NCBI GenBank assembly: GCA_037143195.1
Contig: JBAWZD010000002.1
Location: 3,206 to 67,205 of the forward strand
Direction: 5' to 3'
DNA length: 64,000 nucleotides
DNA from: a bacterium
GTDB lineage: Bacteria > Patescibacteriota > Minisyncoccia > Phycocordibacterales > UBA9973
Positions 1-57,046 of the stretch are shown in pieces. The stretch's first letter is position 1. Each line of letters starts with the position of its first letter. The notes beneath the pieces were generated by a model. The model had not been told where the DNA came from, searched no databases, and saw nothing but the letters and a program-made list of their open reading frames with translations. Both the position numbers and the translations under genes were made by a program.

Positions 1-1265
1 TTTGTGAGCGGGAAATATTCCATTGCGAGGGTCTCGTTGTATCCATGCGGAGACATATCCCCCGGGAAAAATGTTCCATACGTTCCGTCAGCAATCATTG
101 ACGCAACAATTTTTTGTTTGAGTACGTCGTACTCTTCTTTTGTATATGCTTTGTTTAAAATAGAATACTTTGCTTGATTCAAACGAATGCACCCAAAACA
201 CGCAGTCGAATTGTAACAACTGTCAGAATATTCACATTCGTTTGAATACATAACGTAGATAGAATGTTTTGATTTGCTCGTCTGAAGAATCCCCATCATG
301 TCATAACACAATTCTGGTTTGTAGTAGACATTGTTGCAGTCCTGACAATCAATCGGCTGTTCGCTGTCTGCCATGTAGGAAGAATTCTTTGTGTCGGAGG
401 CATCAAAGAGACGCACGCCTTCGTGACAATTGAACATATAGTCCCCTGTCGCATTGTGACACTTGGTCGAAGTCGCATATTTTACGATTGATTGTGCCTT
501 CAATTTTGCATACTCTCGTTTGGCTTCTTCGATTGATTCATAACTACTCAAAATTTCAGCTTTTTTCTGTTCATATTCTTCCTTGGTACATTTCTGGTTG
601 AAGATCGAATAGTTCATGTGACGACCGTTCGTACAGAAAATACAATTTTGTGAATCACGCAAATCAAAACAAAAGAGCAAATCGGTCGAGCTCTGACACT
701 GTTCAGAATACAGACACTTGAAACATTGCCTGCAATCAATACATTCATAACAAAGTTCTGAATCATACACGAATGCACAATCACACACCTGCTTGCTCCG
801 CATGATGAGACGCGAATACATCGAGTCCTCGTTCTGCTCAGCTGCAAAAATGAGGTAGCAATCTTTGTTGTCGGCAGCGTTGTTTGTGTAATCACTGCGC
901 ACCGAATCAATCACGAGCAGCGCAATGCGTGGAACTCTAGATTGCAGTTCGCGGAATTGCTCGAGAAATGGTCGAGTCTCATCGAGGTCCATCGCATACT
1001 CGCGTGGGTCCCATTTGTCACTCCACCAACACGTGTGACAGTACACAGGAAAAGCAGTTCCGCTCGGATAGAGCGAAATACTGTCCTTTTGACACAAATC
1101 ACATACACGTTTGTAGAGCGTGCGTTCATTGCGATATGCGAGACGTCGCGCCATGCGACAGTCCGGACACAGTTTTGGAAGCGGAGCATTCACCTGCTCG
1201 TAAAACACCTGATCCTCAGGACGGATTACGAATTCTTTCGAGCACGTAGCGCAGGTTTTTGTCAT
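1..1265 (-). CDS. Cys-rich zinc-ribbon-repeat protein (partial, C-terminus beyond window start); paralog of 57086..58870
   Basis: Hand translation of the minus strand from the ATG at 1265..1263 gives MTKTCATCSKEFVIRPEDQVFYEQVNAPLPKLCPDCRMARRLAYRNERTLYKRVCDLCQKD...CYECIDCRQCFKC...MEYFPLT with no stop down to position 3. It is collinear with the 57086 protein (MDETKTCQNCSKQF...RRLAFRNERGLYKRKCDFSG...QEYFPLT). It is missing from the ORF track because no stop codon falls inside the window. The listed ORFs 296..478, 614..910 and 911..1189 are out-of-frame shadows. Confidence 0.6.
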   Translation of the reverse strand, partial: MTKTCATCSKEFVIRPEDQVFYEQVNAPLPKLCPDCRMARRLAYRNERTLYKRVCDLCQKDSISLYPSGTAFPVYCHTCWWSDKWDPREYAMDLDETRPFLEQFRELQSRVPRIALLVIDSVRSDYTNNAADNKDCYLIFAAEQNEDSMYSRLIMRSKQVCDCAFVYDSELCYECIDCRQCFKCLYSEQCQSSTDLLFCFDLRDSQNCIFCTNGRHMNYSIFNQKCTKEEYEQKKAEILSSYESIEEAKREYAKLKAQSIVKYATSTKCHNATGDYMFNCHEGVRLFDASDTKNSSYMADSEQPIDCQDCNNVYYKPELCYDMMGILQTSKSKHSIYVMYSNECEYSDSCYNSTACFGCIRLNQAKYSILNKAYTKEEYDVLKQKIVASMIADGTYGTFFPGDMSPHGYNETLAMEYFPLT

Positions 1266-1283: not shown

Positions 1284-3692
1284 TTATTTCAACTCACCCC
1301 AATTGTCGCCTGCCGAGACATGCACTTCGAGTGGCACTGAGCGTCGGCCTTTGAGAAACTCCTTTGGGATTACATTTTTCATAGCATTCTCGACGAGGAC
1401 GGAAACTTTTGCGACATCGCTTTCTTTGACTTCGTACACGAGCTCGTCGTGGACTTGGAGGACGAGATGTGCGGAATCAATCAGATGCTCTGTGCGGAGC
1501 GCTTCATCTGCTGCGCGGATCGCAATCTTGATACAGTCGGCAGCCGTGCCTTGGAGCGGAGCGTTCCCTGCCTGACGCTCAGCACTCGCGCGAAGATATG
1601 GGAGCGGCGAACGGAGATCTTTGAAATTGCGTCTGCGTCCAAAAAGCGTTTCCGTATAATTGTGTTTCTTGGCAAACTCGACGACGCTGTCAGAATACTC
1701 ACGAATCTTTGGAAAACTTGCGAAATACGCATCGTGAAATTCCTGCGCTTCTTTGCGCGACGTGCCGAGATTTTGTTGGAGGGCAGTCACACCCATACCG
1801 TACAGAATGCCGAAGTTGATGACTTTGGCAGTGCGGCGCATGTCGTGTGTGACTTCATTTTCTGGTACATGAAAGACCCGACTCGCCACAGCCGAATGCA
1901 CGTCTTTGCCTGCTTCAAATGTGTCGATCAAATAGTCGTCACCCGACATGAGTGCGGCAACACGAAGTTCGATTTGTGAGTAATCAAATGCGACAAGTTT
2001 ATAGCCGTCCGCTGCGACAAACGCCTCGCGGATTTGCTTGGCGAGACCGTCGCTCCCTGGAATATTTTGCAGATTGGGATTTTGAGAATTGAATCGTCCG
2101 GTCGTCGTACCAGCTTGATTGAATGTGGCATGAATTCGTCCACCCTCATCTACCTGAGCCGGAAGCACATCAATATATGTGGAGAGCAATTTTGAGAGTT
2201 CACGATAGCGCAAAATCTCATCAATGATTGGGTGCATACCTTTCAATTTCTGAAGTTCACTTTCGCGTGTGGAGCGCGCACCACCTTCAGTCTTTTTGAG
2301 TTTGGTTCCTGTGCCTTCGCCAACTTTCAATTCATCAAAGAGGATTTCACCGAGCTGTTTGGGTGAATTGATATTAAAATCACGTCCAGCGAATGCTTTG
2401 ATACGTTTCTCGATACCATCGAGTTCGGTATGGCCAATCTCGGCGAGTTTTGCCATTTTTTTAACATCGAGCTTCACTCCATACTTCTCCATATTCTCGA
2501 TGACTGACATGATTGGAAGTTCAATATTTTCGTACACATATGTCAGCCCTTTGTCTCGGATATCTGCGAGGATTTTTGTTTCCGCTTCGGCGAGTTTTTT
2601 GGCTCCTCCGTAATACAAAATATCTTCTGGCGTCGGATTGTTGAGATCCGAATTCAGGAGCCACAATGCAAGACTGAGTTTTTTGAACTGTATCGGGTCA
2701 ATTGATTCCTTTTGTTCATTGACGCCAGTAGCACCGTCGGCGCCAGCATCACTCTTCGGACTCACCCCAAACAATGTGTGCACGCGAGGTGTAAGCGCGC
2801 GGAATTCGAGTTCACGAAACAGCGTCTCGACTTTTGCGAGATCGGCAGATTCTTGAAATGTTTTTTCTGGGACAACGAAATCAATCGGAGCATCTCGACG
2901 AATCGTCGCGAGCGTTTTTGAAAAGAGCGCCTCCTCTTCCCCGTTTTTCAAAAGTTCGACGATGCGTGGCTTCACGACCTTCGCGACTTCGGCTTCATCT
3001 TTCTGTAATTTTTTGTAGATTGATTCAATCGAGCCAAACTGCGTAATCAAATCTGTTGCGGTTTTTTCTCCAATGCCAGCGATACCAATAATATTGTCGG
3101 ATGGATCACCACGAAGTCCCTTATAGTCAGGCAACAATTTAGGACCAAACCCAAACCGCGCCTTCACGGCATCTTCGTCATACATGACAGTATCGTTGAG
3201 CCCTTTCTTGAGTGTAAAAACTTGAACCTTTGTGCTGTCGACAAGCTGAAGCGTATCCATATCGCCAGACGCAATCACGATTTCGATATTTTTGTCGGCC
3301 TGCATTTTCTCAACAATCGTCCCGAGAATGTCGTCAGCCTCAAAGCCCGGAGCATCGTACATCGGAATATTAAACGCTTCAAAAATTCGGCGGGAGCTAA
3401 TAATCTGAGCCACAAGTCCTTCATCAGCTTTCTGGCGAGTGCCTTTGTACGCTTCATACGCCTCATGACGAAATGTTTTCTGTGGGAGGTCGTAACAGGC
3501 AACGATATAGTCAGGTTTGAGATCAGTGGCAATCTTCATGAGCATGGCACTAATGCCATAGAGAGCGCCGGTGGGCTCACCTTTTGAGTTCGAGAAGTCA
3601 GGCATCGCGTGATATGCGCGGTGGATGATGGCGTGAGCGTCAAGGAGCACAAGGCGCTTTTTAGTGTTTTTGGATGCGGTTTTTGCGGACAT
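1284..3692 (-). CDS. polA: DNA polymerase I (5'-3' exonuclease + polymerase domains)
   Basis: The N-terminal 5'-nuclease motif is KRLVLLDAHAIIHRAYHAMP. Pol A family motifs RRTAKVINFGILYGMG and HVLQVHDELVYEV are present. The likely ATG start is at 3692 (MSAKTASK...); the ORF track extends to a TTG at 3719. Confidence 0.95.
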   Translation of the reverse strand: MSAKTASKNTKKRLVLLDAHAIIHRAYHAMPDFSNSKGEPTGALYGISAMLMKIATDLKPDYIVACYDLPQKTFRHEAYEAYKGTRQKADEGLVAQIISSRRIFEAFNIPMYDAPGFEADDILGTIVEKMQADKNIEIVIASGDMDTLQLVDSTKVQVFTLKKGLNDTVMYDEDAVKARFGFGPKLLPDYKGLRGDPSDNIIGIAGIGEKTATDLITQFGSIESIYKKLQKDEAEVAKVVKPRIVELLKNGEEEALFSKTLATIRRDAPIDFVVPEKTFQESADLAKVETLFRELEFRALTPRVHTLFGVSPKSDAGADGATGVNEQKESIDPIQFKKLSLALWLLNSDLNNPTPEDILYYGGAKKLAEAETKILADIRDKGLTYVYENIELPIMSVIENMEKYGVKLDVKKMAKLAEIGHTELDGIEKRIKAFAGRDFNINSPKQLGEILFDELKVGEGTGTKLKKTEGGARSTRESELQKLKGMHPIIDEILRYRELSKLLSTYIDVLPAQVDEGGRIHATFNQAGTTTGRFNSQNPNLQNIPGSDGLAKQIREAFVAADGYKLVAFDYSQIELRVAALMSGDDYLIDTFEAGKDVHSAVASRVFHVPENEVTHDMRRTAKVINFGILYGMGVTALQQNLGTSRKEAQEFHDAYFASFPKIREYSDSVVEFAKKHNYTETLFGRRRNFKDLRSPLPYLRASAERQAGNAPLQGTAADCIKIAIRAADEALRTEHLIDSAHLVLQVHDELVYEVKESDVAKVSVLVENAMKNVIPKEFLKGRRSVPLEVHVSAGDNWGELK

Positions 3693-3768
3693 GCCTGAAG
3701 TATACTCGGAGTCGCCCAAAAAGAGAAAAGGCTAATTCTAGTAGAGAGAATTAGCCTTAGTATTTTTT

Positions 3769-8438: not shown

Positions 8439-8550
8439 AAATGAACATTTAGTTTTTTTACATTTGAATATATTATATATCATTTGTCTATAAAAGTCAA
8501 GGGCCTGTATCGCCTGAAGTTCCTTTGTGCGGTATACTATTTCTAGACCT

Positions 8551-10245
8551 ATGCCCCAAGACTTTGATGACAAAATCGACCGTAATATAGCGGAATTTCG
8601 CGCACAGGAAGAAGAGGCGCTCGCGAGCGTCCTTGCGACCTCAAAATACGACATTCCTTACGTCAATCTCTCAACGACGGCCGTCCAAAATGAGGCACTC
8701 CGCCTGGTTGCCGAAGAAGATGCTCGTCGAATCAAAGTCGCTCCATTCAAACTCTCTGGCAAAGAAGTTTCCGTCGCGATTCTCGACCCATCGAGTGACG
8801 ATGTGGTGACCTGCTTCGAAGAACTCGAACACAAAGGCTGGACTCCCCGCCCGTTTATGGCAAGTCATGCAAGTCTTGAACATGCGTGGGCTCGTTACAA
8901 AGAAATCTCTTTCGCCCAAGAATCTCGCCGTGGTGGTCTTGATGTCTCAAGCGCGACGCTTGAGGATCTCGCAAAAGAAATCAAAAATCTCGGCGATGTG
9001 AAGCGTATCGTCGACGAAATCACGACCGGCCACGAGACTCACGCGACGTCTCGACTGCTGGAGGTTATCCTCGCTGGAGCTATTTCGCTCCAATGTTCCG
9101 ACGTGCATATCGAGCCAGAAGAAAAGCAAGCTCGCGTGCGTTTTCGTCTCGACGGAGTTCTGCAAGATATTCTTTTTCTTGACCCAAAACTGTATCACCT
9201 CCTCAACTCACGCATCAAACTCATTGCCGGATTAAAGCTGACCATCGTCACCAAAGCGCAGGACGGACGTTTTAGTATCTTTGAAAACGGCGTCGAAATT
9301 TCGATGCGTACTTCGACGATTCCTGGCTCCTACGGCGAATCAATCGTGATGCGTATTCTCGACCCAAAATCGATTCAAGTTGATCTTGCGAACATGGGTA
9401 TTGAGCCAAAACTCTTCACCATCATCGATGCTGAAATCAAAAAACCAAACGGCCTCATTCTCATTACCGGTCCGACAGGAAGTGGAAAAACCACGACGCT
9501 GTATGCGTTTTTGCGCAAAATCTATAGTCCAGAAATCAAAATGATCACCATTGAAGATCCAGTGGAATATCACCTCGACGGCATCACGCAAACACAAGTT
9601 GAACCTGGATATACATTCCTCGATGGATTGCGCGCAGCACTTCGCCAAGACCCAGACGTGATAATGGTGGGAGAAATTCGTGACGGAGAAACAGCAAAAA
9701 TCGCAGTTGAATCTGCACTGACTGGACACATCGTGTTCTCAACACTGCACACCAACAATGCGGCCGGAGTCATCCCCCGCTTGATTGATCTTGATGTAAA
9801 TCCAAAAATTTTGGTCTCCGCACTTTCGCTCTCTATCGCTCAGCGTCTCGTGCGTAAACTCTGCACCGTATGTAAAGTCGAGCGCCCCGTAAAACCGGAA
9901 GAAGAAGCACTCCTCCGCAAACTTTTAAAACAAGCAGCAGACCAAAACAAAAATATCGGCGCGTATAATCTCACGGCCGACATGCCAATCAAACTCTTTA
10001 CCGCTCCCGGATGCGAAGCATGTCACAACACCGGATACAAAGGACGTATGGGTATTTTTGAAGCAATCAAAACAGACGAAGCAATTGAAAAAATAATCCC
10101 AACCAATCCAAGTGAGCGCGAAATCAAACGTGTCGCCGCCACCCAAGGGATCTTCAACATGCAAGAAGACGGCATGGTCAAAATCCTCTCCGGCATCACC
10201 TCTATCGAAGAAGTGCAAAGCGTCGTGGACTTAACGGAAGAATAA
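8551..10245 (+). CDS. pilB: type IV pilus / type II secretion assembly ATPase (GspE/PilB family)
   Basis: There is an N-terminal GSPII_E_N-like region. Walker A is ILITGPTGSGKTTTLYAFL. Other motifs are LRQDPDVIMVGEIRDGETAKIAVESALTGHIVFSTLHTNNAAG and the C-terminal tetra-Cys zinc site CTVCKV...CEACHNTGYKGR. A TATACT -10 lies at about 8531-8536, just before the ATG at 8551. Confidence 0.9.
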   Translation: MPQDFDDKIDRNIAEFRAQEEEALASVLATSKYDIPYVNLSTTAVQNEALRLVAEEDARRIKVAPFKLSGKEVSVAILDPSSDDVVTCFEELEHKGWTPRPFMASHASLEHAWARYKEISFAQESRRGGLDVSSATLEDLAKEIKNLGDVKRIVDEITTGHETHATSRLLEVILAGAISLQCSDVHIEPEEKQARVRFRLDGVLQDILFLDPKLYHLLNSRIKLIAGLKLTIVTKAQDGRFSIFENGVEISMRTSTIPGSYGESIVMRILDPKSIQVDLANMGIEPKLFTIIDAEIKKPNGLILITGPTGSGKTTTLYAFLRKIYSPEIKMITIEDPVEYHLDGITQTQVEPGYTFLDGLRAALRQDPDVIMVGEIRDGETAKIAVESALTGHIVFSTLHTNNAAGVIPRLIDLDVNPKILVSALSLSIAQRLVRKLCTVCKVERPVKPEEEALLRKLLKQAADQNKNIGAYNLTADMPIKLFTAPGCEACHNTGYKGRMGIFEAIKTDEAIEKIIPTNPSEREIKRVAATQGIFNMQEDGMVKILSGITSIEEVQSVVDLTEE

Positions 10246-13288: not shown

Positions 13289-14677
13289 TTACTCGTAACG
13301 GAAGAATCTCATTTTACCAACACGGTATGTTCCTTTTTCTGGAGATGCTCCCACATCAGTCACTTTTTGGTCATTCTCAAGATGTGTGACCGCTCCTGCT
13401 TCGACAAGTCGACGTGCCTCCGTCTTTGAACTTGCCACCTCGGCACGCATCATCAAATCAATGATAGTCGCATACTCCCCTGTGACAACGGAAACATCTT
13501 CAGGGATTTTCTTTTCCGAAAATGTTTCTACCCAAGAATTCTCCGCAGTCTTTACGATCGCCTCTCCGTGGTATATTGCGACAATCTCACGGGCAAGTCG
13601 CATTTTGATATCACGTGGATTCGTCTTGCCATCGGTAAGCACTTGAGCAATCTCCTTGACCTCATCAAGCGGAGTGTATGTTGTGAGTTCGAAGTATCGA
13701 GGAATGAGCGTGTCAGGGAGCGACATGATTTTGCCGTACATATCGTTTGGCTCATCTGCGATACTGACATAGTTGTCGAGCGACTTGCTCATCTTCTCTT
13801 TCCCATCGAGCCCCTCGAGGATATCCATACTCATCACCGCTTGTTCTTTCTGCTTGTTCATCTTCATGACATCGCGGCCCATGAGCATGTTGAATGTCTG
13901 ATCTGTTCCCCCAATCTCAAGATCACACGACCCGTAGATATTTGCGAGTAGCGATGAATCGATCCCCTGAAGAACTGGATACAACATTTCGTGCATGTGA
14001 AGTTCCGCGCCACTTTGGATACGATCCTGAAACATATCACGCTCAATGAGTCGCGCATGGGTAATATGACGCAGTGTTCCCAAGATTCGCATGAATGACA
14101 CAGAGTGGATCTCTTTTGTATGGAGCATCGTCTTTTGCATGCGAGTACTGTCAAACAATACCGCCTTGCCCACAAACGATCGTGGGTCGAGCGTGTACTC
14201 CATCTTCTTGCCTTCAACCTCAACATTCATTGAGACCTTCGTATCAGGACTTGGCTCGATATCAGTCACATCCAAAAACCAATCTGAATTACAAATCCAA
14301 GAAAACACTTTTGGGTCGGTCGAAAGAATCTTTCCTACTTGATCAAGGTACGTCTGCATATTCGCTCGAATCTCGGCTTGGCTTATTTCCGGACGAGTTT
14401 TCGATTTTCCTGTCGGGTCACCGATGAGTGAGGTGTAGTCTCCAATCAAAAAGATCACCTTACAGCCAATATCTTGAAACGCGCGGAGTTTGCGCAAAAT
14501 AACAGCGTGGCCAAGGTGGATATCTGGTCGCGTAGGGTCAATACCAAGCTTTATCACAATATCACCCGCATGTTCACCGCGAGCTTTTTGTGCGACTTTC
14601 TCACGAAACGTATTTTCTGGGTCGATAAGCGTCGCAATCCCGCGAGAAAAAAGTTCATCAAGATTCACTGTATTCAT
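13289..14677 (-). CDS. tyrS: tyrosyl-tRNA synthetase (class I, with C-terminal S4 domain)
   Basis: The HIGH-type motif is PDIHLGHAVILRKL and the KMSKS motif is KMSKSLDNYVSI. The C-terminal S4-like region is ARRLVEAGAVTHLENDQKV. The ATG is at 14677 (MNTVNLDELF). Confidence 0.8.
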   Translation of the reverse strand: MNTVNLDELFSRGIATLIDPENTFREKVAQKARGEHAGDIVIKLGIDPTRPDIHLGHAVILRKLRAFQDIGCKVIFLIGDYTSLIGDPTGKSKTRPEISQAEIRANMQTYLDQVGKILSTDPKVFSWICNSDWFLDVTDIEPSPDTKVSMNVEVEGKKMEYTLDPRSFVGKAVLFDSTRMQKTMLHTKEIHSVSFMRILGTLRHITHARLIERDMFQDRIQSGAELHMHEMLYPVLQGIDSSLLANIYGSCDLEIGGTDQTFNMLMGRDVMKMNKQKEQAVMSMDILEGLDGKEKMSKSLDNYVSIADEPNDMYGKIMSLPDTLIPRYFELTTYTPLDEVKEIAQVLTDGKTNPRDIKMRLAREIVAIYHGEAIVKTAENSWVETFSEKKIPEDVSVVTGEYATIIDLMMRAEVASSKTEARRLVEAGAVTHLENDQKVTDVGASPEKGTYRVGKMRFFRYE

Positions 14678-14737
14678 ACGATGCACTTTACCACAAAAGG
14701 TTTTTTTTGTCCTCGGGCGCGTGATATGATTGTTTCC

Positions 14738-17254
14738 ATGAATAACCAAACAAAAACTCACCATATTCTCCGTAATATCGGATTCGCGTTTCTCGGAACT
14801 TGCGCACTGCTCAGTGGAATTCTGCTTGTTTGGATTAGTCTTATCAAGCTCCCTGATTTCAGTTCGTTTGATAGCCGAAAAGTAACCAACTCAACCAAAA
14901 TTTACGATCGTACTGGCACAATTGTCTTATATGACCTTGGCCAAAACGCTCACCGAACATCAATCCCCTACACTGAGATGGGGACAAGTATAAAAAATGC
15001 GACAGTCGCAATCGAAGACTCGAACTTCTATCAAAATTTTGGAATCGAACCAAAGGCGATGATCCGCGCGCTCATTGCTGACATCACCCACGCGGGTGCG
15101 GTGCAAGGTGGATCAACAATCACCCAACAAGTCATCAAAAAGAGTCTCCTCTCTGACGACAAAACGATTGTCCGAAAATTAAAAGAAGTCGTTCTTGCGC
15201 TCAAGCTTGAGCATGAATACACCAAAGACCAAATCCTTGGTGCGTATCTTAACGAAATTCCATATGGCGGAAATGTCTACGGTATCCAAGAAGCGTCTCA
15301 ATCATTCTTCGGTAAGAACCCAAGTGATCTTACACTCGCAGAGTCTGCCTACCTCGCCGCAATTCCAAACGCACCAACACACTATTCTCCGTACGGTTCA
15401 CACAAAAACGATCTTGATACACGAAAAAATTTCGTGCTTACTCGAGAACGTGACCTTGGGTTTATTACTGACACACAATTCACTCAAGCAAAAAACGAAC
15501 AAGTAGTATTTAAACCACAACAATCGAATGGAATTAAAGCTCCTCATTTTGTGTTTTTCATCAAGGATTATCTTGAACAGAAATACGGAGCAGACATGGT
15601 TGAATCCGGAGGACTGAAAGTCATCAGCACGCTTGATTACGATCTACAACAATCTGCTGAGAAGGCAGTCACTGAATATACACTTGGTGACAAGAAACAA
15701 ATCGACAAAGAAAATGCTGGACTTGTTGCAATAGACCCAAAGACAGGACAAGTGCTCGCAATGGTTGGCTCACGAAATTATTTTGATACAGAAATCGATG
15801 GTAATTTTAATGTCACCACAGCGCAACGCCAACCAGGATCTTCGTTTAAACCATTTATGTATGCAACAGCATTCGAAGGTGGATACACCGCTGAAACATC
15901 ACTCTTTGATGTTCCAACTGAATTTAACGCAAAATGTGATCCTTACGGGAAACCATACCCAGGTGTAACTCAAGACCAATGTTACATGCCACAAAACTAC
16001 GACCAGAAATACCATGGCCCAATGACTATTCGTGAGGCACTCGCTCGATCCATGAACGTGCCTGCAGTCAAAATGCTCTATATTGTGGGAGTTCAAAATG
16101 CAATCAAAACTGCCCAAGATATGGGAATCACAACACTCGCTGATTCGTCTCGATATGGTCTCGCGCTTGTGCTTGGAGGAGGTGAAGTAAAACTTCTTGA
16201 GATGGTGAGTGCGTATAGTGATTTTGCAGCCGAAGGTGTGCGTCATCCATATGCGAGTGTATTATCGGTCCAAGACAAAAACGGAAACACACTAGAATCA
16301 TGGCAGGATAATCCAGTCACCGTCCTTCCAAAAGATGTCACCCTCACCATGAGTGATATTCTTTCTGACAACACTGCTCGCACACCTACATTCGGGCCAA
16401 ACTCCTCACTCTATTTCCCAGACAGACAAGTCGCAGTAAAGACTGGAACAACAAATGATTACAAAGATTCATGGGCAATTGGATATACTCCATCACTCAC
16501 CGCTGGTGTGTGGGTTGGTAAAAACGATAATACGTCGATGCCAGTTGTTGTGACCGCGTCCCCTGTCTGGCACGCATTCATGCAAGAAGCACTCAAAAAA
16601 TACCCAAACGAAACGTTTGATAAACCCGCTATAAATCCAAACTATAATTCCCTTCCGCCAGTACTTCGTGGTTATTGGCAGGGAGGAAAAAGTTTTGTTG
16701 TTGACTCTGTGTCAGGAAAACTCGCAACAGATAAAACACCGCTCTCAACTCAAAAAGAATACGTAATCACTGACGTCCATGACATTTTACATTGGGTAAA
16801 TAAAACAAATCCAGCAAGTGGTGCTCCAACAAACCCAGAAAACGATCCTCTTTATAATAATTTTGAAACAGCTGTTCAAAATTGGTGGGCTCAAAATTAT
16901 ACAAAATACCCAATCGTTTCAGACACTCAAAAACCAACAGGGTATGATGATGTTCACACAACTAAAAATACACCGAGTATTATTATTGGTAGTCCAAAAA
17001 TGTCACAGCAGTTTAAACAAGATGATGTAGTCCCTGTTATTGTTAGTGAGACAGGTCAGTACCAACTCCAAAAAATTGATGTCTTTTTAAACAACTCTTT
17101 TGTTGGTTCAACAAAAAATGGTAATCCGCTTTTCACTTTCACCCCAAGCCAAGTCACCGGAGTACTTGTTGGAGAAAACAAACTTACCGTCACAGGTACT
17201 GATACCGCTGGTAATACAGTAACCGTGAGCGAACCAATTCAGATCACTGACTAA
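14738..17254 (+). CDS. class A penicillin-binding protein (PBP1A-type glycosyltransferase/transpeptidase)
   Basis: There is an N-terminal TM (ILRNIGFAFLGTCALLSGILLVWISL). GT51 motifs are AIEDSNFYQNFGIEPKAMIRAL and GGSTITQQVIKK. Transpeptidase motifs are SSFKPF (SxxK) and KTGTT. An extra Ig-like domain lies at the C-terminus. Confidence 0.9.
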   Translation: MNNQTKTHHILRNIGFAFLGTCALLSGILLVWISLIKLPDFSSFDSRKVTNSTKIYDRTGTIVLYDLGQNAHRTSIPYTEMGTSIKNATVAIEDSNFYQNFGIEPKAMIRALIADITHAGAVQGGSTITQQVIKKSLLSDDKTIVRKLKEVVLALKLEHEYTKDQILGAYLNEIPYGGNVYGIQEASQSFFGKNPSDLTLAESAYLAAIPNAPTHYSPYGSHKNDLDTRKNFVLTRERDLGFITDTQFTQAKNEQVVFKPQQSNGIKAPHFVFFIKDYLEQKYGADMVESGGLKVISTLDYDLQQSAEKAVTEYTLGDKKQIDKENAGLVAIDPKTGQVLAMVGSRNYFDTEIDGNFNVTTAQRQPGSSFKPFMYATAFEGGYTAETSLFDVPTEFNAKCDPYGKPYPGVTQDQCYMPQNYDQKYHGPMTIREALARSMNVPAVKMLYIVGVQNAIKTAQDMGITTLADSSRYGLALVLGGGEVKLLEMVSAYSDFAAEGVRHPYASVLSVQDKNGNTLESWQDNPVTVLPKDVTLTMSDILSDNTARTPTFGPNSSLYFPDRQVAVKTGTTNDYKDSWAIGYTPSLTAGVWVGKNDNTSMPVVVTASPVWHAFMQEALKKYPNETFDKPAINPNYNSLPPVLRGYWQGGKSFVVDSVSGKLATDKTPLSTQKEYVITDVHDILHWVNKTNPASGAPTNPENDPLYNNFETAVQNWWAQNYTKYPIVSDTQKPTGYDDVHTTKNTPSIIIGSPKMSQQFKQDDVVPVIVSETGQYQLQKIDVFLNNSFVGSTKNGNPLFTFTPSQVTGVLVGENKLTVTGTDTAGNTVTVSEPIQITD

Positions 17255-23766: not shown

Positions 23767-25611
23767 CTACCACCCGCAGTGTACGTGGTTTTCGTGTTGG
23801 CTGTTTGTTCGGTACCCCGTTACTGGACAAGCGATAAAACTATTTTGTCCTTTTCCAAGCCCATTGCAGGGACCAAATATTTGTCGAGGATTTGCTCCGG
23901 CCGCTCTGCAGATGTCCATAATTTTTTTGGCTGTTGTTGTGCTATATGAAAACGAAGCTCCTCCGATATCAAACGCGAGACCTCGGTAGTGAGCTGATCC
24001 CTTTGTGTGTTGTCCGCCTAACAGTTCTGTGACATTAACTGAGCCAACATTATTTGCAACAACAAGGAGTCCTGCGAGCATTCTTGAATCAAGACTCGCC
24101 TGTATTTGCCCGCCTTGTCTGGAGGGGCTTGTCCACGCGGCGACTCCATTCGCTGTGTCGGTTATGTTTTGGATAACACTCGATTTCGCGTCTTGTGATC
24201 CCCATGCGGGACTCAAGGTGATATTTCGATTTTGAAGAATTTGTTTTGCAAGATCTTGGGCTGACCCCGTAGGCAAGGTTACTGTCATGTTAGATGGGCT
24301 ATCACCGGGGACACTAAGGCCTGAGTCGTCGCTCTCGAGTCCTTCTTCTCCTAAATCTATTTCTGCCTGCGGAGCCGAAACAGTAATATTCACCAAGTTA
24401 GGGTTAATGGTATTGAGTATGAGATATGAAGAGAGTGCAAGCACTACTCCCCCAAGAGCACCAATGATACGAGTCTTTGCCCCCTCCTTCTCTCCAACTT
24501 GTACACTCGACATATATTCAATACCACCAACGACAACCATGAAGACAGCAAATACCATGATGAGACCCATGATGAGCTTAATCATTCCTTTGAGGTAATC
24601 ACCAACACCAGTAGAGACATTTAGCTTCCCTGTTGGATCAATCTTACCCTGAGCATCCACAATGGGAAGTGGTGCAAGCATACAGTAGGTGTTGTTCTGT
24701 CCGTCTGTGGAACAACCGTAGGCGTTTGGGCCGAAGCCGGCGGTCGTACTTGTTCCACTTGTTGAGACGCTTGGGACGGTGAAGTCTTTGAAGGAGGTAA
24801 AAAACAAATCATTAAATTTGAGAGCAAAAACATACTGTCCTCCAGGGAGGAGTCCTGTAAGTGTTATTTTAAACGAGTGGGGATTGTTTGACGCGTCGAG
24901 TGCTGCTTGGTCAGGAATCTTTGTCTGCCATGAAATCGCTTGAGCATACGTGCCAGCCGATGAAGTCTGTGACTTTACGCCACTGTACCAAACTTTCACA
25001 TCGTTCCACTGACCGTTGTTTTTTATTTGATCAAGCGCTTCTTGGTTGAGGTCCCCCGTGATTGTTACTCCGTCAGCTGTCGGTGTTGTTACAAGATTTG
25101 TGACATCGGGGCCAGATTTTCCGAGCGGAACATCCATGATGTTAAAATACTCAATGTTCGTGAGGGGCCAGCTGTCACGTGTAAGCGCGCTCTGCAAGAA
25201 AATCTCATCTCCAAAAGTGCCGTAATCGGTGAATTGGGGAATCGTACACGTAAAGTTTGGGTCTGTGTCAGAGGAACTATCTTTGACACACTTTTTTCGA
25301 TACAAGAAAACTCCGTTGATGACGCCTGTTGCATGGGTTTCAAGATATGCTTGGTTGATACTTGGGTCTGTTATGAGAACATAGGCAAGTTCGACTTGGC
25401 GTGAAAGAGGAGCAAGGGAATAATAGTCAATGAGTGCCGGACCATCCAGCTTGACGTGCATTGTTCTTGAAAGCACTCCGTCTGTGCGCGCGGTTTCAGT
25501 CTGTCCAATGAAAGCTCTTCCTCCCCCGACGGTGTCTGCTCTAGTCGTTGGTGTGTTAAATAAAAAGGCAGACAAGAAAAGTGCACTAACAATGAGAATT
25601 TTTTTGTACAT
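23767..25611 (-). CDS. secreted multidomain protein: conserved N-domain + pilin-like TM hairpin + C-terminal peptidase M15-like (D-Ala-D-Ala carboxypeptidase/LAS) domain
   Basis: The signal peptide is MYKKILIVSALFLSAFLFNTPTTRA. The TM hairpin is GMIKLIMGLIMVFAVFMVVVGGIEYMSSVQVGEKEGAKTRIIGALGGVVLALSSYLIL. The C-terminus has the M15-type zinc motifs GSAHYRGLAFDI (SxHxxGxAxD) and ENHVHCGW. It is paralogous to 26659..28539 over the N-domain and TM segment. Confidence 0.65.
   Translation of the reverse strand: MYKKILIVSALFLSAFLFNTPTTRADTVGGGRAFIGQTETARTDGVLSRTMHVKLDGPALIDYYSLAPLSRQVELAYVLITDPSINQAYLETHATGVINGVFLYRKKCVKDSSSDTDPNFTCTIPQFTDYGTFGDEIFLQSALTRDSWPLTNIEYFNIMDVPLGKSGPDVTNLVTTPTADGVTITGDLNQEALDQIKNNGQWNDVKVWYSGVKSQTSSAGTYAQAISWQTKIPDQAALDASNNPHSFKITLTGLLPGGQYVFALKFNDLFFTSFKDFTVPSVSTSGTSTTAGFGPNAYGCSTDGQNNTYCMLAPLPIVDAQGKIDPTGKLNVSTGVGDYLKGMIKLIMGLIMVFAVFMVVVGGIEYMSSVQVGEKEGAKTRIIGALGGVVLALSSYLILNTINPNLVNITVSAPQAEIDLGEEGLESDDSGLSVPGDSPSNMTVTLPTGSAQDLAKQILQNRNITLSPAWGSQDAKSSVIQNITDTANGVAAWTSPSRQGGQIQASLDSRMLAGLLVVANNVGSVNVTELLGGQHTKGSAHYRGLAFDIGGASFSYSTTTAKKIMDICRAAGANPRQIFGPCNGLGKGQNSFIACPVTGYRTNSQHENHVHCGW
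24365..24743. repeat. 379-bp direct repeat copy 1 (identical to 27266..27644)
   Basis: By eye the nucleotide sequence is identical to copy 2 at offset +2901. It encodes the 126-aa segment AGFGPNAYGCSTDGQNNTYC...NITVSAPQA shared by the two hydrolase paralogs. The shadow ORFs 24287..24598 and 27308..27499 are identical. Confidence 0.8.
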
Positions 25612-25612
25612 A

Positions 25613-26608
25613 TTACTGCAAGTGAAGCGTTAGACTCGACTGGAGTTCTTGAAAAAGTTTTGTCGTGTTCAACATTGAAACATTCACGAGGGCGTCTCCT
25701 TTGTCGGAGTTACTTCTGTGGAGAAAGAGAGTGTTTGGGTTCGCTGGTGAGTTGAGTGTGTTCCCATTCAGCGACCACGTGTATGAAATCTGGCTTGAGG
25801 TTGGGTTGCCTGGGGAAAAAAAGTATGGAAACACGACGAGCGAGACATCACTATCCTTTACGGTGTAATCATCGGTAAGAGCATGATTGTAAAGCGTTCC
25901 GTAGAGAGGGCTCCCTGCGTACCACACAAGTTTTGGGTCAGACGGATCAAGCGCAATATCATTTGAAGCAGCGACTGTCCCGTCTCGTCCTGAGATATCT
26001 AATCCGATATGTCTGGTTGGATTTACATAGTCCATCGCAGTAGAAAATACATTTTTACCAAAACCAGAGTGTGCATCGTCCGGATTGTATTCGTCGCGCC
26101 ATTCATACAAGAAACCGCTCGTCGGAATGAGCGATCCTGCACCATCAAGCACTTGTGGAATTGCAACGAACTTCACTTTTGATTCAGAGGTGACCAGTGC
26201 TTTACCTCGATAAAATGGGGGCACGACTGAATCAGTTGCTTGCCAAAGGATGTCTACAGAGGAAGGAACGACGGTAATTGTTTGAACGATAGGAAGACTG
26301 CCAACGGGCGTGATTGTTACGGTTACAACTGTTGGGCTCCCAAGTTTTTTTGTTGTGATTGTGTATTTGTTGTATCCAATCCCGCCAACAGTTTTGCCTC
26401 CATCGACAGTCCAATCAATCTCGGCTGTTTGAAGTGAGAATGAATACGTGTTTACTGTCAGTGTTACTTGTTGATTTGGCCCAGGGCTTGTTGGGAAAAG
26501 GCTGACCGAGACACTCGCGCCCCCAAGTGCCTGAGCGTTCGTGATGTTTGCAAAAGAAACGACACATAGAACGATGAGAACAAAGATGGTGCATGCTCGA
26601 CGAATCAT
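25613..26608 (-). CDS. secreted beta-rich (Ig-like) hypothetical protein
   Basis: The signal peptide is MIRRACTIFVLIVLCVVSFANITNAQA, and the composition is T/S/V-rich beta-sandwich-like. It lies between the two hydrolase paralogs. Confidence 0.5.
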   Translation of the reverse strand: MIRRACTIFVLIVLCVVSFANITNAQALGGASVSVSLFPTSPGPNQQVTLTVNTYSFSLQTAEIDWTVDGGKTVGGIGYNKYTITTKKLGSPTVVTVTITPVGSLPIVQTITVVPSSVDILWQATDSVVPPFYRGKALVTSESKVKFVAIPQVLDGAGSLIPTSGFLYEWRDEYNPDDAHSGFGKNVFSTAMDYVNPTRHIGLDISGRDGTVAASNDIALDPSDPKLVWYAGSPLYGTLYNHALTDDYTVKDSDVSLVVFPYFFSPGNPTSSQISYTWSLNGNTLNSPANPNTLFLHRSNSDKGDALVNVSMLNTTKLFQELQSSLTLHLQ

Positions 26609-26658
26609 CTTTCAATTATACGACAGGAGCGCCGAGAACAAAAGGAATTATGTACGAT

Positions 26659-28539: not shown

Positions 28540-28552
28540 GTACTAAATAGTA

Positions 28553-30397: not shown

Positions 30398-30401
30398 ATG
30401 A

Positions 30402-31067
30402 TTATTGTTGTACTGTGTCCCCCATTCCAAGTTTGATAGCCGGTTGTATATCTCCTGGATTAAATGTCTTATAAAAAAGTTCAATTACCGCTTCTGTCTC
30501 AAGTCTCTCTGTTCTTGCACCACACGATTCAAGACCACCAGAAATAACATTTACACGTTCGTCGAGCTGAGATCGCTTCTCCTCGAAGTTGATGTCTTCT
30601 GTTTTTTGCTTCGACGAACCCTCTGATTTCTTGTTTCCAAGGAGGCCTCCAAGAAAACCGCTACTTGTGGAAAGTGTTGCTTCGTCGTACGGGACGATAA
30701 CATAGAAATATTTTCGCATGATTGCAACCTGCTCGGTAAATTCGCGAATGAAACTAATATACCCTGCAGTTTGTAGCTTCAGTAGTGGCTCACGTTGATC
30801 TTTCATTTTTGAATCGAGGGTGAGGAGGTAAGGACGAATGTCGAGCCTGCGTGACTGCACGACAATTTGGATTGGAAAATCAAGTGAGTTCAAAAATGAT
30901 TGAAATTGATTGATTGTTGCGATTTGTTCCTGAGCTGATTTCAGGGAAAGGTTGACTGACGAGACTGCAACAATCGCTCGTAAGCCACCGTCTTTTAAAA
31001 CGATGACCCCTTCTCGCACCTGTTTAATCGGTACGAATTCTTGCGTTGCTTTTGCAGAGATTGCCAC
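30402..31067 (-). CDS. VirB4 N-terminal-domain-like protein (separate ORF, different frame, 4 nt upstream of virB4)
   Basis: VPIKQVREGVIVLKDGGLRAIVAVSSVNLSLKSAQEQIATINQFQSFLNSL matches the N-terminal pattern of conjugative VirB4/TraE ATPases (..v.tkDGsl..iiel.g.n..lks.eE.e.l...f..fl..l). The ORF has a GTG start. The combined length with 28553..30397 approximates a full-length VirB4. Confidence 0.45.
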   Translation of the reverse strand: MAISAKATQEFVPIKQVREGVIVLKDGGLRAIVAVSSVNLSLKSAQEQIATINQFQSFLNSLDFPIQIVVQSRRLDIRPYLLTLDSKMKDQREPLLKLQTAGYISFIREFTEQVAIMRKYFYVIVPYDEATLSTSSGFLGGLLGNKKSEGSSKQKTEDINFEEKRSQLDERVNVISGGLESCGARTERLETEAVIELFYKTFNPGDIQPAIKLGMGDTVQQ

Positions 31068-31109
31068 GAAATCATTATATCACCACTACTAGAAAACAAA
31101 GAACGCTTT

Positions 31110-31517: not shown

Positions 31518-31538
31518 GGGTATAGTATACCGCAGTGA

Positions 31539-32408: not shown

Positions 32409-32450
32409 ATAGATATAGTATAGTACGGCACGAACAAGAACGCTACTTTT

Positions 32451-35270: not shown

Positions 35271-35275
35271 ACCTA

Positions 35276-38977: not shown

Positions 38978-39046
38978 CAAAGACTAGTATACTCCGGAGC
39001 CCTTGTTTATAAAAGCTTTCTGTGGAAACGTGGCGATGTTTTTTGC

Positions 39047-39952: not shown

Positions 39953-39970
39953 ATTAAAGAGTATAGCACT

Positions 39971-40789: not shown

Positions 40790-40821
40790 ACGGCTACTCT
40801 AGCATACTGCGCGCCCCTTCT

Positions 40822-42756: not shown

Positions 42757-42797
42757 GAGTGGACACACTATACCTTTTTTCTCACCACTTTGTCTCC

Positions 42798-56950: not shown

Positions 56951-57046
56951 ACTCAAAGTGTAGCTTTTGTCGAAAATTTGTCAACACATTATATATTTAT
57001 TTTGTAAGCATATATATTACTCCGTATGGAATTTGTTGCGAATAGT

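What the first reader, a model, noticed from the sequence alone, without database searches (positions are those of the whole stretch)
1..1265. Paralogous, extremely Cys-rich proteins with duplicated terminal zinc-ribbon modules and Cx2Cx2Cx2C(x2C) clusters
Two genes, 1..1265 (partial) and 57086..58870, encode collinear proteins of about 600 aa with dozens of cysteines. Each has an N-terminal module CxxC...FYE...P.PT.C..CR..RRLA.RNER.LYKR.C. In the complete copy the module is repeated almost verbatim at the C-terminus. The centre contains ferredoxin-like clusters such as CQGCMNCFGC and CYECIDCRQCFKC. I do not recognise the family. The metal-binding potential (zinc or Fe-S) is high. Two copies within 64 kb, one divergent from a TrmB-like regulator, suggests a lineage-expanded family of unknown function.
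Basis: seen in the sequence. Interest (0 to 1): 0.6.

Follow-up and report, generated by a model that had tools for sequence, protein, structure and literature searches.

The report
Cysteine-ladder zinc-finger protein family, Parcubacteria
The two cysteine-rich genes are real members of a very large, unannotated and unstudied multi-copy protein family of the uncultivated Parcubacteria: zinc fingers at both ends flank two unusually thin beta-helices whose interior is lined with cysteine and serine, so the central cysteines look like packing residues, not iron-sulfur sites.

Summary
Copy A (57086..58870, +, 594 aa, 37 Cys) and copy B (1..1265, -, first 421 of 558 aa) are 39% identical paralogues. 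They carry about ten times the cysteine content of other ORFs in the window.

The terminal modules belong to a known Pfam domain, the treble-clef zinc finger zf_Tbcl, each followed by a small zinc ribbon. Their cysteines are 99-100% conserved.

The centre is not ferredoxin-like. It is an internal duplication of a module with no Pfam, NCBIfam or PDB match. Sequence periodicity and AlphaFold2 both indicate a beta-helix of 12-13 residues per turn. Every third residue is small and buried, Cys swaps freely with Ser, and only 2-3 central Cys are near-invariant.

The family is huge: about 1,500 clusters at 50% identity with full-length-level scores (E <= 1e-30). Named records are all Patescibacteria/Parcubacteria, and all are labelled hypothetical. 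Its ancient paralogues sit in tandem arrays of up to 7 genes, with at least 9 per genome.

The usual home is a conserved cluster, dnaK, VirD4-like ATPase, 0-3 family genes, VirD4-like ATPase, dnaJ. The window's two copies lie elsewhere.

Function is unknown. My best guess, at low confidence, is zinc-finger adaptor proteins serving those ATPases.

The parts
57086..58870 (+). Copy A, complete gene (594 aa; MEI8130355.1, WCG55_02505).
   Evidence: ORF list. 100% identical to P0001. AF2 mean pLDDT 81, pTM 0.84.
57086..57259 (+). A residues 1-58: basic N-terminal treble-clef zinc finger. Ligands C7, C10, C35, C38, followed by an Arg-rich helix.
   Evidence: PF13451, 20.1 bits. These Cys are 100% conserved in 311 sequences. 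Median net charge +4. AF2 shows a hairpin knuckle and then a helix starting at the second CxxC.
57260..57355 (+). A residues 59-90: degenerate second zinc ribbon. Its cysteines are lost in subfamily A and intact in B. It ends in the conserved W-x-S-D-x-W-D motif.
   Evidence: Columns 57, 60, 78 and 81 are Cys in 37-60% of the family and in 100% of subfamily B.
57452..57766 (+). A residues 123-227: beta-helix module 1, with a period-3 Cys/Ser lattice and a 12-residue turn. It contains CQGCMNCFGC at 57695..57724.
   Evidence: Small or aliphatic residues fill 90% of lattice positions and 36% and 21% of the two off-lattice phases. The period-3 power was reached by 0 of 2000 shuffles. Profile self-similarity peaks at lag 12.
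57767..57871 (+). A residues 228-262: helical hairpin between the two modules. It begins with the conserved KEEYE cap.
   Evidence: AF2 helices 230-239 and 245-259.
57872..58234 (+). A residues 263-383: beta-helix module 2, an internal duplicate of module 1.
   Evidence: HHalign of residues 123-240 against 274-395: probability 99.7%, E 1.7e-25. The equivalent region of the B model has pLDDT 86-97 and a repeating 12-13-residue strand pattern.
58235..58531 (+). A residues 384-482: long helix plus a conserved acidic alpha/beta region (motif YGEFFP..SP..YNET.AQEYFPLTKEEA).
   Evidence: pLDDT around 90. Net charge -6. No match in any family library.
58532..58720 (+). A residues 483-545: basic C-terminal treble-clef finger, homologous to the N-terminal one.
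   Evidence: HHalign probability 99.4%. C485 99%, C495 81%, C520 67% (otherwise His or Asp), C523 80%. Net charge +7.
58721..58867 (+). A residues 546-594: C-terminal zinc ribbon (C567, C585, C588, with C542 from the preceding segment) ending in YCExCYQQE.
   Evidence: Weak PF23477 zf_Tbcl_2 match, 13.2 bits, seen in 16 of 64 members. These Cys are 99-100% conserved.
1..1265 (-). Copy B, 5' part of the gene. Residues 1-421 of 558 are encoded by bases 3..1265; the rest lies beyond the left edge of the window.
   Evidence: Six-frame translation. 100% identical to P0121. Start codon position read from the sequence.
1098..1265 (-). B residues 1-56: N-terminal treble-clef zinc finger (C5, C8, C33, C36).
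   Evidence: PF13451, 27.3 bits, above the gathering score of 24.
1026..1103 (-). B residues 55-80: intact second zinc ribbon (C55, C58, C76, C79).
   Evidence: Cys positions. 100% conserved within subfamily B.
588..905 (-). B residues 121-226: beta-helix module 1, including CYECIDCRQCFKC at 714..752.
   Evidence: In a 12-residue register, C/S/V/L fall at positions 1, 4, 7 and 10. The AF2 model is of low confidence here (pLDDT 55-77).
141..491 (-). B residues 259-375: beta-helix module 2.
   Evidence: AF2 pLDDT 86-97 over most of it, with the DSSP repeat EEEEE--E--E-.
57047..57076 (+). Promoter-like site for copy A (TTGACG, 18 nt, TATAAT). The -10 hexamer ends 9 nt before the ATG, which suggests a leaderless or nearly leaderless mRNA.
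   Evidence: 11 of 12 consensus matches. Sequence read.
56183..56956 (-). TrmB-family regulator, divergent from copy A.
   Evidence: PF01978, 37.1 bits. The same gene order is seen in L084 and L004.
1284..3719 (-). polA, directly upstream of copy B on the same strand with an 18-nt spacer. The two genes are probably co-transcribed.
   Evidence: ORF list, sequence, gene order in L083.
63386..64000 (-). Second TrmB-like gene, cut by the window edge. In the syntenic relative L004 it is followed 1.3 kb further on by a third family member in divergent orientation.
   Evidence: Synteny at 83-92% nucleotide identity. In L004 the TrmB match scores 50.9 bits and the third copy hits zf_Tbcl.

Best explanation
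SHOWN.
- Both genes belong to a very large, unannotated multigene family. Every named record is Patescibacteria, and the finer labels are Parcubacteria lineages.
- The proteins have no signal peptide and no transmembrane segment, so they are predicted to be cytoplasmic.
- Each protein contains two homologous thin beta-helices of 12-13 residues per turn.
- In these helices every third residue is a small buried residue, mostly Cys or Ser.
- A basic Cys4 treble-clef finger plus a small ribbon caps each end. The conservation pattern fits structural zinc sites.
- The central cysteines behave as packing residues, not as Fe-S or obligate metal ligands.
- The paralogues are ancient, are kept as separate orthologous lines, and are conserved on their surfaces as well as in their cores.

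INFERRED, low confidence.
- The proteins are non-enzymatic adaptors or scaffolds.
- Their two basic fingers grip a polyanion (DNA, RNA or an acidic protein tail), and the beta-helical body offers paralogue-specific binding faces.
- They work with a pair of soluble VirD4/TraD-like hexameric ATPases, here called T1 and T2. In most relatives the family genes are wedged between T1 and T2 inside the dnaK-dnaJ operon.
- In that setting they would be substrate adaptors, or substrates, of a chaperone-linked translocation or remodelling machine.

The window's own copies have moved out of that cluster. Copy A has its own strong promoter opposite a TrmB-type regulator. Copy B rides on the polA transcript.
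For: Family size and distribution:
- Searching with A gave at least 7,995 hits, all labelled hypothetical.
- The exhaustive phmmer search found 3,767 clusters at 50% identity, 1,493 of them at E <= 1e-30.
- 566 confirmed stretches were found in species-representative genomes. Every name with any detail is Patescibacteria or Parcubacteria.

Architecture:
- Pfam matches only zf_Tbcl and zf_Tbcl_2.
- Both the central module and the terminal module are internally duplicated.
- Terminal Cys are invariant, while central Cys exchange with Ser.
- The period-3 lattice is highly significant, and profile self-similarity peaks at lag 12.
- AF2 gave pTM 0.84 and 0.85 and a repeating 12-13-residue strand pattern.
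- The only fold-level hits, all weak, are beta-helix proteins.
- There is no transmembrane segment or signal peptide.

Paralogy:
- 218 members lie in 83 loci, up to 7 in tandem.
- At least 9 occur in one assembly (L045 plus L071 of MHLB01).
- 157 of 164 members are closer to a gene in another genome than to their own array neighbours.
- Surface positions are as conserved as core positions within subfamilies.

Link to the ATPases:
- T1 or T2 is present in 31 of 83 family-anchored loci, and 26 of the 44 ATPase genes are directly adjacent to a family gene on the same strand.
- Reciprocally, 55 of 66 T2-anchored metagenome loci have a family gene immediately upstream of T2.
- In loci holding both ATPases, 0, 1, 2 or 3 family genes lie between them in 11, 17, 11 and 4 loci respectively, inside dnaK..dnaJ.
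- T1 and T2 match VirD4/TraD/DUF87 models.
- T1 carries a CxxC-x17-CxxC ribbon of the same kind as the family's C-terminus.
- The two finger modules are basic, +4 and +7.
Against: - The function is inferred from gene neighbourhood only.
- The loci are phylogenetically related, so conserved synteny partly reflects shared ancestry.
- In the window itself neither copy is next to T1, T2 or dnaK. Orthologues of copy A occur in many other contexts: a ribosomal protein operon, next to TrmB, next to an ABC ATPase.
- 11 of 43 T1-T2 clusters have no family gene between the ATPases.
- Nucleic-acid binding rests only on charge and on the domain type.
- AF2 confidence for module 1 is modest (pLDDT 55-77), and I could not inspect coordinates. 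Handedness, cross-section and Cys-Cys distances are therefore unverified.
- The block C204, C207, C210, C213 is 73-98% conserved. It could still bind one metal ion.
Confidence: 0.35

Rival explanations
1. RNA-directed housekeeping factors that work independently of the ATPases. The two basic zinc fingers would bind tRNA or rRNA, and the proteins would act in ribosome or tRNA biogenesis.
For: - Copy A sits between a TrmB regulator and the CCA-adding enzyme, close to four tRNA genes.
- In L002 three copies lie inside the ribosomal protein operon, between L2 and S19.
- From my own knowledge, the CxxC-x17-CxxC ribbon type also occurs on RNA helicases.
- Orthologues are highly conserved, as expected for housekeeping genes.
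Against: - These contexts are single cases. The ATPase cluster recurs in dozens of loci.
- No known RNA-binding or modification domain was found.
Confidence: 0.15
2. Translocated cargo (effectors). The proteins would be unfolded with help from DnaK/DnaJ and exported by a type IV secretion-like machine through the T1/T2 coupling ATPases, then act in the host cell of the episymbiont.
For: - Tandem arrays are flanked by VirD4-like ATPases inside the chaperone operon.
- The window genome encodes a VirB4-like ATPase and an SLT lytic transglycosylase among large surface proteins.
- From my own knowledge, Arg-rich C-terminal regions serve as signals in some type IV secretion substrates. This family's C-terminal finger has net charge +7.
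Against: - Orthologues are 55-90% identical across genera, and their surfaces are under purifying selection. That is unlike arms-race effectors.
- Stable zinc fingers at both ends would hinder unfolding.
- T1 and T2 have no membrane anchor that I could see, and they lie far from the VirB4-like cluster in the window.
Confidence: 0.12
3. Redox- or stress-sensing chaperone partners, analogous to Hsp33. Oxidation of the cysteine ladder and release of zinc would switch the protein into an active holdase that cooperates with DnaK, DnaJ and GrpE.
For: - Family genes are embedded in grpE-dnaK-dnaJ (subfamily C directly follows grpE).
- Each chain carries 26-42 thiols plus zinc sites.
Against: - Central Cys are individually dispensable (Cys/Ser exchange), and partner positions are anti-correlated. 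That does not fit a defined disulfide switch.
- There is no similarity to Hsp33 beyond a chance-level Foldseek hit (E 9.7).
Confidence: 0.1
4. One reading: Fe-S (ferredoxin-like) or metal-storage proteins that use the central CxxCxxCxxC clusters.
For: - The Cys density is very high.
- The block C204, C207, C210, C213 is 73-98% conserved.
Against: - There is no CxxCxxCxxxCP motif.
- There is no Fer4, radical-SAM or SPASM match.
- Most central Cys are replaced by Ser, Val or Leu in other members.
- Only 2-3 central Cys are near-invariant across the three subfamilies.
- All central Cys of module 1 fall on one structural period-3 lattice shared with Ser, Ala, Val, Ile and Leu.
Confidence: 0.06
5. 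Structural or cytoskeletal polymer. Beta-helical bodies of different paralogues would stack into filaments, as bactofilins do.
For: - The architecture is beta-solenoid.
- Several conserved paralogues are co-expressed from arrays.
Against: - Both helices carry conserved capping motifs (FGCVGLRKK.YCILN.QY.KEEY followed by a helix) and are flanked by globular domains. That blocks end-to-end stacking.
Confidence: 0.05

Closest known systems
Pfam PF13451 zf_Tbcl ('probable treble clef domain') proteins, usually annotated 'zinc-ribbon domain containing protein'
   Same: - The N- and C-terminal modules (CxxC .. FY .. P.P..CxxCR..R) are this domain.
- B scores above the gathering threshold.
- Phage 'putative zinc-ribbon domain proteins' superpose at 0.7 A over 43 columns.
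   Different: - From my own knowledge, known members are mostly short proteins made of one to three such fingers.
- Here two fingers bracket about 430 residues of unmatched sequence.
- As far as I could find, the domain itself has no experimentally established function.
CxxC-x17-CxxC ribbon (TIGR04272 / Pfam PF23477 zf_Tbcl_2)
   Same: - The C-terminal ..C..FET.Y.P......VYCExCY ribbon resembles it.
- The neighbouring T1 ATPase carries a bona fide copy (51 bits).
   Different: - The family's own ribbon scores below threshold (13 bits against 27).
- Only 16 of 64 members give even a weak hit.
Tenebrio/Dendroides insect antifreeze protein beta-helix (Pfam PF02420; 12-residue repeat TCTxSxxCxxAx)
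   Same: - 12 residues per turn.
- Every third residue is buried and is Cys, Ser or Ala.
- There is essentially no room for large core residues. The AFP repeat pattern is from my own knowledge.
   Different: - There is no sequence homology: 1 of 64 members hit at E 0.074.
- There is no TCT ice-binding face.
- The i/i+6 Cys pairs that form the AFP disulfides are anti-correlated here.
- The protein is bacterial and has no signal peptide.
- The resemblance is most likely convergent.
Left-handed beta-helix (hexapeptide-repeat) proteins: gamma-carbonic anhydrase, LpxA/LpxD, GlmU
   Same: They are the only structures Foldseek retrieves for the centre, which supports a solenoid.
   Different: - The hits are weak: best E 9e-3, TM at most 0.22, rmsd 10-15 A.
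- Those proteins have 18-residue turns and a hexapeptide signature, which are absent here.
- No Hexapep Pfam hit was found.
Type IV coupling proteins (VirD4/TraD/TrwB) with their adaptor or substrate proteins
   Same: Family genes are flanked by two VirD4/TraD-like ATPases in a conserved cluster.
   Different: - The ATPases score far below family cut-offs.
- I saw no membrane anchor.
- They sit in the dnaK operon, not in a conjugation module.
- No relaxase is present.
- No interaction has been tested.

Membership tests
Pfam PF13451 zf_Tbcl (treble-clef zinc finger) | Profile score at or above the gathering threshold (24 bits). | tested here: met
   B scores 27.3 bits. A scores 20.1 bits, below threshold. 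36 of 64 family members hit at E <= 1 (best 1.1e-7). The N- and C-terminal modules are homologous (HHalign 99.4%).
Pfam PF13451 zf_Tbcl (treble-clef zinc finger) | Two CxxC pairs, the first on a beta-hairpin knuckle and the second at the start of a helix. | tested here: met
   C7, C10, C35 and C38 are 100% conserved in 311 sequences. AF2 shows strands 3-6 and 13-16 and a helix at 36-44.
CxxC-x17-CxxC ribbon (PF23477 / TIGR04272) | Profile score at or above threshold. | tested here: not met
   A scores 13.2 bits against a cut-off of 27. There is no TIGR04272 hit. 16 of 64 members give weak hits. It is similar in kind but not a scoring member.
4Fe-4S ferredoxin-type cluster domain | CxxCxxCxxxCP motif with all four ligands conserved. 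| tested here: not met
   The motif is absent. The central Cys are variable and exchange with Ser. Only C210 and C368 reach 95% or more. There are no Fer4 hits.
Radical SAM / SPASM maturases | CxxxCxxC cluster motif and a Radical_SAM or SPASM profile match. | tested here: not met
   No such Pfam or NCBIfam hit in either copy or in 64 relatives.
Insect antifreeze beta-helix (PF02420) | 12-residue turn with small residues buried at every third position. | tested here: met
   Period-3 lattice. Lag-12 maximum of profile self-similarity. AF2 strand repeat.
Insect antifreeze beta-helix (PF02420) | Conserved intra-turn Cys pair (i, i+6) forming disulfides, a TCT face, and a profile match. | tested here: not met
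   Cys presence at i and i+6 is anti-correlated: mean phi is -0.2 and 9 of 10 pairs are negative. One of 64 members hit at E 0.074. There is no signal peptide.
Left-handed beta-helix hexapeptide transferases / gamma-carbonic anhydrase | Hexapeptide repeat, 18-residue turn, significant fold match. | tested here: not met
   Best Foldseek E is 9e-3 with TM at most 0.22. The period here is 12-13. There is no Hexapep hit.
Adhesin or surface repeat proteins | Signal peptide or anchor, and a known repeat-domain match. | tested here: not met
   The maximum 19-residue hydropathy is 0.96 and the N-terminus is polar. No repeat-domain hits were found.
Anti-phage defence systems (PADLOC) and phage families (PHROGs) | A profile match. 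| tested here: not met
   PADLOC gave no match. PHROGs gave only a weak hit to a family of unknown function (E 3.5e-4). No IMG/VR relatives were found.
Substrate or adaptor of a VirD4-type coupling ATPase | Physical recognition by the ATPase. | not testable with these tools
   Only gene adjacency is available.

The most novel reading that the evidence does not exclude
The family and the two soluble VirD4/TraD-like ATPases wedged between dnaK and dnaJ could form a previously undescribed, Parcubacteria-specific, chaperone-coupled translocation or remodelling system. In it, a set of ancient paralogous 'cysteine-ladder' beta-helix proteins would act as cargo adaptors or as cargo. Separately, the central module would be a new cytoplasmic class of ultra-thin beta-helix with 12 residues per turn. 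To my knowledge that geometry is otherwise known only from disulfide-bonded insect antifreeze proteins.
Probability: 0.2. Interest if true: 0.8.

Novelty: new variant of a known kind. Interest (0 to 1): 0.62.

Why it matters
- Parcubacteria have genomes of roughly a megabase (my own knowledge), yet some keep at least 9 of these 1.7-kb genes. That would be more than 1% of such a genome.
- The paralogues have been held as separate conserved lines since before the genera split.
- A family this abundant and this conserved, with no annotation, no Pfam model for two-thirds of its length, no solved relative and no paper that I could find, is a clear gap in understanding this large uncultivated lineage.
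- Its tight linkage to two equally uncharacterised, extremely conserved VirD4-like ATPases inside the Hsp70 operon gives a concrete, testable entry point.
- Structurally, it offers a natural cytoplasmic thin beta-helix whose core is built from Cys/Ser ladders.

Tried and rejected
- Inteins or introns. Several tblastn matches spanned 2.0-2.5 kb, but these were adjacent tandem paralogues.
- Viral origin. No IMG/VR relatives were found. BFVD matches only the small zinc finger.
- Defence system. PADLOC gave no match.
- Mobile element or transposase:
  - There is no transposase or integrase domain.
  - There is no room for element ends: A's stop codon lies 1 nt from the end of the convergent CCA-enzyme gene, and the upstream spacer is only 129 bp.
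  - No inverted repeats were found.
- Recent tandem amplification. Array neighbours are about 43% identical, while the best match in another locus is about 57%.
- Fe-S protein, radical SAM or adhesin. See the membership tests.
- Sequence and profile searches of the PDB found nothing. Foldseek of model A against the PDB found nothing.
- Seven literature searches gave no paper on this family (paper text checked). They covered the Pfam names, treble clef plus Patescibacteria, cysteine-rich plus CPR or Parcubacteria, VirD4 plus DnaK, and Paceibacteria plus zinc finger.
- TrmB as a general partner. It appears in only about 6 of 83 loci.
Full report
**1. The observation**

Copy A is the ORF 57086..58870 on the + strand (594 aa). 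The other copy is on the minus strand. Its ATG is at 1265..1263, 18 nt after the polA stop codon, and the reading frame runs off the left edge of the window after 421 residues.

Database look-ups identify the two proteins as MEI8130355.1 ('hypothetical protein WCG55_02505') and MEI8130310.1 ('zinc-ribbon domain containing protein', 558 aa). Both lie on one 272-kb MAG contig.

A and B are 39% identical over 436 residues (E 4e-94). A has 37 Cys (6.2%) and full-length B has 38. Other window ORFs of at least 150 aa have a median of 0.55% Cys.

The N-terminal module recurs at the C-terminus of A at 51% identity (HHalign probability 99.4%). It is homologous, not verbatim. The quoted Cys strings are present. 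The divergent neighbour of A is a TrmB-family regulator.

**2. Known and unknown parts**

Pfam recognises only the ends:
- zf_Tbcl (PF13451, 'probable treble clef domain') scores 27.3 bits in B, above threshold, and 20.1 bits in A. It hits 36 of 64 relatives.
- zf_Tbcl_2 hits the extreme C-terminus only weakly.

Nothing explains the central ~430 residues. NCBIfam, PADLOC, and sequence and profile searches of the PDB all came back empty, and PHROGs gave only one weak hit to a family of unknown function.

HHalign shows that the centre is itself a duplication. Residues 123-240 match 274-395 with probability 99.7% and E 1.7e-25. The layout is therefore:
- finger, ribbon, helices
- module 1
- helical hairpin
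- module 2
- helix plus an acidic alpha/beta region
- finger, ribbon

**3. What the cysteines do**

I aligned 311 family members.

| Position | Conservation |
|---|---|
| C7, C10, C35, C38 (N-terminal finger) | 100% |
| C542, C567, C585, C588 (C-terminal ribbon) | 99-100% |
| C485, C495, C520, C523 (C-terminal finger) | 99%, 81%, 67%, 80% |
| N-terminal second ribbon | intact in subfamily B, lost in A |

C520 is otherwise His or Asp, which are alternative zinc ligands. This is the signature of structural zinc sites.

The centre behaves differently:
- Cys occupancy per column is mostly 25-80%.
- The replacement is chiefly Ser, then Val, Leu or Thr.
- Only C210 (98%) and C368 (95%) approach invariance.
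- With three subfamilies aligned, no central Cys is strictly invariant.
- All module-1 Cys lie on a single uninterrupted three-residue lattice from residue 126 to 225.
- Small or aliphatic residues fill 90% of lattice positions, against 36% and 21% of the other two phases.
- The period-3 power was not reached by any of 2000 shuffles.
- Column-profile self-similarity peaks at lag 12 in module 1 and at lag 13 at the end of module 2.
- Cys presence at i and i+6, the cross-turn partners, is anti-correlated (mean phi -0.2). This gives Cys-Ser pairs more often than Cys-Cys pairs.

These data argue against ferredoxin-type clusters and against obligate disulfide or metal pairs. They fit small residues packing the interior of a very thin solenoid.

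**4. Structure prediction**

| Model | Alignment | Mean pLDDT | pTM |
|---|---|---|---|
| A | 64 sequences | 81 | 0.84 |
| B | 120 sequences, three subfamilies | 86 | 0.85 |

In the B model, module 2 has pLDDT 86-97 and a repeating EEEEE--E--E- pattern every 12-13 residues. Module 1 is less confident, at pLDDT 55-77.

Foldseek against the PDB found nothing for model A. For model B it found only weak hits (best E 9e-3, TM at most 0.22). Every hit in the top ranks is a left-handed beta-helix protein: gamma-carbonic anhydrases, LpxA/LpxD, GlmU. BFVD gave the same picture, plus confident small matches of the terminal finger to phage 'putative zinc-ribbon domain' proteins.

**5. The family**

- Three searches seeded with subfamilies A, B and C each returned thousands of full-length relatives of nearly constant length. 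The lengths are about 594, 559 and 553 aa, and the relatives are 54-90% identical within a subfamily. All are unnamed or labelled 'hypothetical'.
- The exhaustive search counts 3,767 clusters at 50% identity, 1,493 of them at E <= 1e-30.
- Named records are all Patescibacteria. Those with finer labels are Paceibacteria, Nomurabacteria, Staskawiczbacteria, Liptonbacteria, Jorgensenbacteria or Parcubacteria.
- Many MAGs carry the generic label 'uncultured Candidatus Saccharibacteria', which I could not verify.
- One 2.6-kb 'Aenigmatarchaeota' contig is probably mis-binned.
- In 83 loci of at most 18 kb I found 218 members in co-oriented tandem arrays of up to 7. One assembly has at least 9 (L045 plus L071).
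- 157 of 164 arrayed genes are closer to a gene in another genome (median 57%) than to their nearest array neighbour (median 43%).
- Surface positions of module 1 are as conserved within subfamilies as core positions.

The paralogues are therefore ancient, individually maintained, and constrained on their surfaces.

**6. Genomic context**

The commonest neighbour is a soluble VirD4/TraD/HerA-like ATPase (DUF87, TrwB_AAD_bind, TraG-D_C). It is present in 31 of 83 loci, and 26 of the 44 ATPase genes are directly adjacent to a family gene on the same strand. There are two types:
- T1 is about 700 aa. It carries a genuine CxxC-x17-CxxC ribbon and ends in ...EVPEDVLRKILE.
- T2 is about 490 aa. It is 64-90% identical across genera and ends in ...EAEPMI.

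The recurrent order is grpE, (subfamily C), dnaK, T1, family genes, T2, dnaJ.

I then tested the link in the other direction, starting from T2 in metagenome contigs:
- 55 of 66 informative loci have a family gene immediately upstream of T2.
- Among 43 loci that hold both ATPases, 11, 17, 11 and 4 have 0, 1, 2 and 3 family genes between them.

These loci are closely related (T2 at least 84% identical), so they are not independent observations.

Other contexts exist. Three copies lie inside the ribosomal protein operon between L2 and S19 (L002). Other family genes sit next to TrmB (about 6 loci) or follow a set of membrane-protein genes and T2.

**7. The window's own copies**

Neither copy is beside T1, T2 or dnaK.

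Copy A:
- It has an 11-of-12 sigma-70-type promoter whose -10 hexamer ends 9 nt before the ATG, which suggests a leaderless transcript.
- It lies opposite the TrmB gene.
- It converges on the CCA-adding enzyme gene.

Copy B:
- It follows polA.
- It is followed by PEMT-like, holA-like and DsbB genes.
- It has no TrmB partner.

The window is syntenic with L004 at 83-92% nucleotide identity. In L004 the counterpart of the truncated TrmB-like gene at 63386..64000 is followed 1.3 kb further on by a third family member. A third copy therefore probably lies just outside the right edge of the window.

**8. Interpretation**

Shown:
- A new, very large family carried, wherever the records are named, by Patescibacteria/Parcubacteria.
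- Predicted cytoplasmic location, because there is no signal peptide and no transmembrane segment.
- Conserved Cys4 sites at both ends that fit structural zinc.
- Two thin Cys/Ser-ladder beta-helices in the middle.
- Basic fingers, with net charge +4 and +7.
- No catalytic motif that I could recognise. The invariant polar residues in the centre recur at apparently equivalent positions of the two modules.

Inferred:
- The proteins are non-enzymatic adaptors or scaffolds.
- Their fingers bind a polyanion, and their paralogue-specific surfaces bind distinct partners.
- They serve the T1/T2 ATPases in a chaperone-linked process.

I put about 0.8 on the architecture and about 0.25-0.3 on the functional link. 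The single confidence value of 0.35 reflects both. The rivals are listed separately: RNA housekeeping factors, secreted cargo, a redox switch, Fe-S or metal storage, and filaments.

**9. Novelty**

The finger domains are a known kind, and the centre is a new family within the broad solenoid class. The function and the associated ATPase cluster are undescribed in anything I could search.

I rate the finding 'new variant of a known kind'. There is a real chance, about 0.2, that it marks a categorically new system.

Noticed in passing
L001, L006, L010, L017, L035, L068 and L085-L164 (not in the window): Two extremely conserved soluble VirD4/TraD-like ATPases sit between dnaK and dnaJ in many Parcubacteria. 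T1 is about 700 aa, carries a CxxC-x17-CxxC ribbon and ends in ...EVPEDVLRKILE. T2 is about 490 aa, is 64-90% identical across genera and ends in ...EAEPMI. They appear to be uncharacterised in their own right.
   Followed up: partly
window 23767..45620 (- strand): A type IV secretion-like cluster. It contains a VirB4-like ATPase (28553..30484; P-loop_TraG, AAA_10, DUF87), an SLT lytic transglycosylase (26659..28539), large proteins with no Pfam match (32451..35270 and 42798..45620), one Ig-like surface protein (35276..38980) and a UvrD helicase (40822..42768).
   Followed up: no
window 57047..57086 and 56956..56984: Both divergent genes, copy A and the TrmB gene, have promoter-like -10 hexamers ending 9 nt and 1 nt before their start codons. 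This suggests leaderless mRNAs.
   Followed up: partly
window 63386..64000 (-); L004 10903..14247: A second TrmB-like gene is cut by the window edge. In the syntenic relative L004 a third family paralogue lies 1.3 kb beyond it, so a third copy is expected about 1.4 kb outside the window.
   Followed up: yes
L002 2244..7779: In a Nomurabacteria contig, three family paralogues and a small GIY-YIG ORF are inserted inside the ribosomal protein operon, between the genes for L2 and S19.
   Followed up: partly
L055, L056, L066, L079, L075, L044: A second recurrent context for the family. A sigma70-r4/HARE-HTH protein and two membrane proteins without any Pfam match (about 458 aa and 172 aa) precede T2 and the family genes.
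   Followed up: no
window 60411..61551: Four tRNA genes (Arg-TCG, Gly-GCC, Pro-TGG, Gly-TCC) lie just downstream of the CCA-adding enzyme gene that converges on copy A. No other Rfam family was found in the window.
   Followed up: no
window 8527..10245 (+) and 14474..17254 (+): A PilB-like type II/IV secretion ATPase (T2SSE, MshEN) and a class A penicillin-binding protein. Both are ordinary for this lineage.
   Followed up: no
L083 4967..5503: A DsbB-like gene lies 1.6 kb downstream of copy B, just outside the window. The organism can probably form extracytoplasmic disulfides, although the family itself has no export signal.
   Followed up: no
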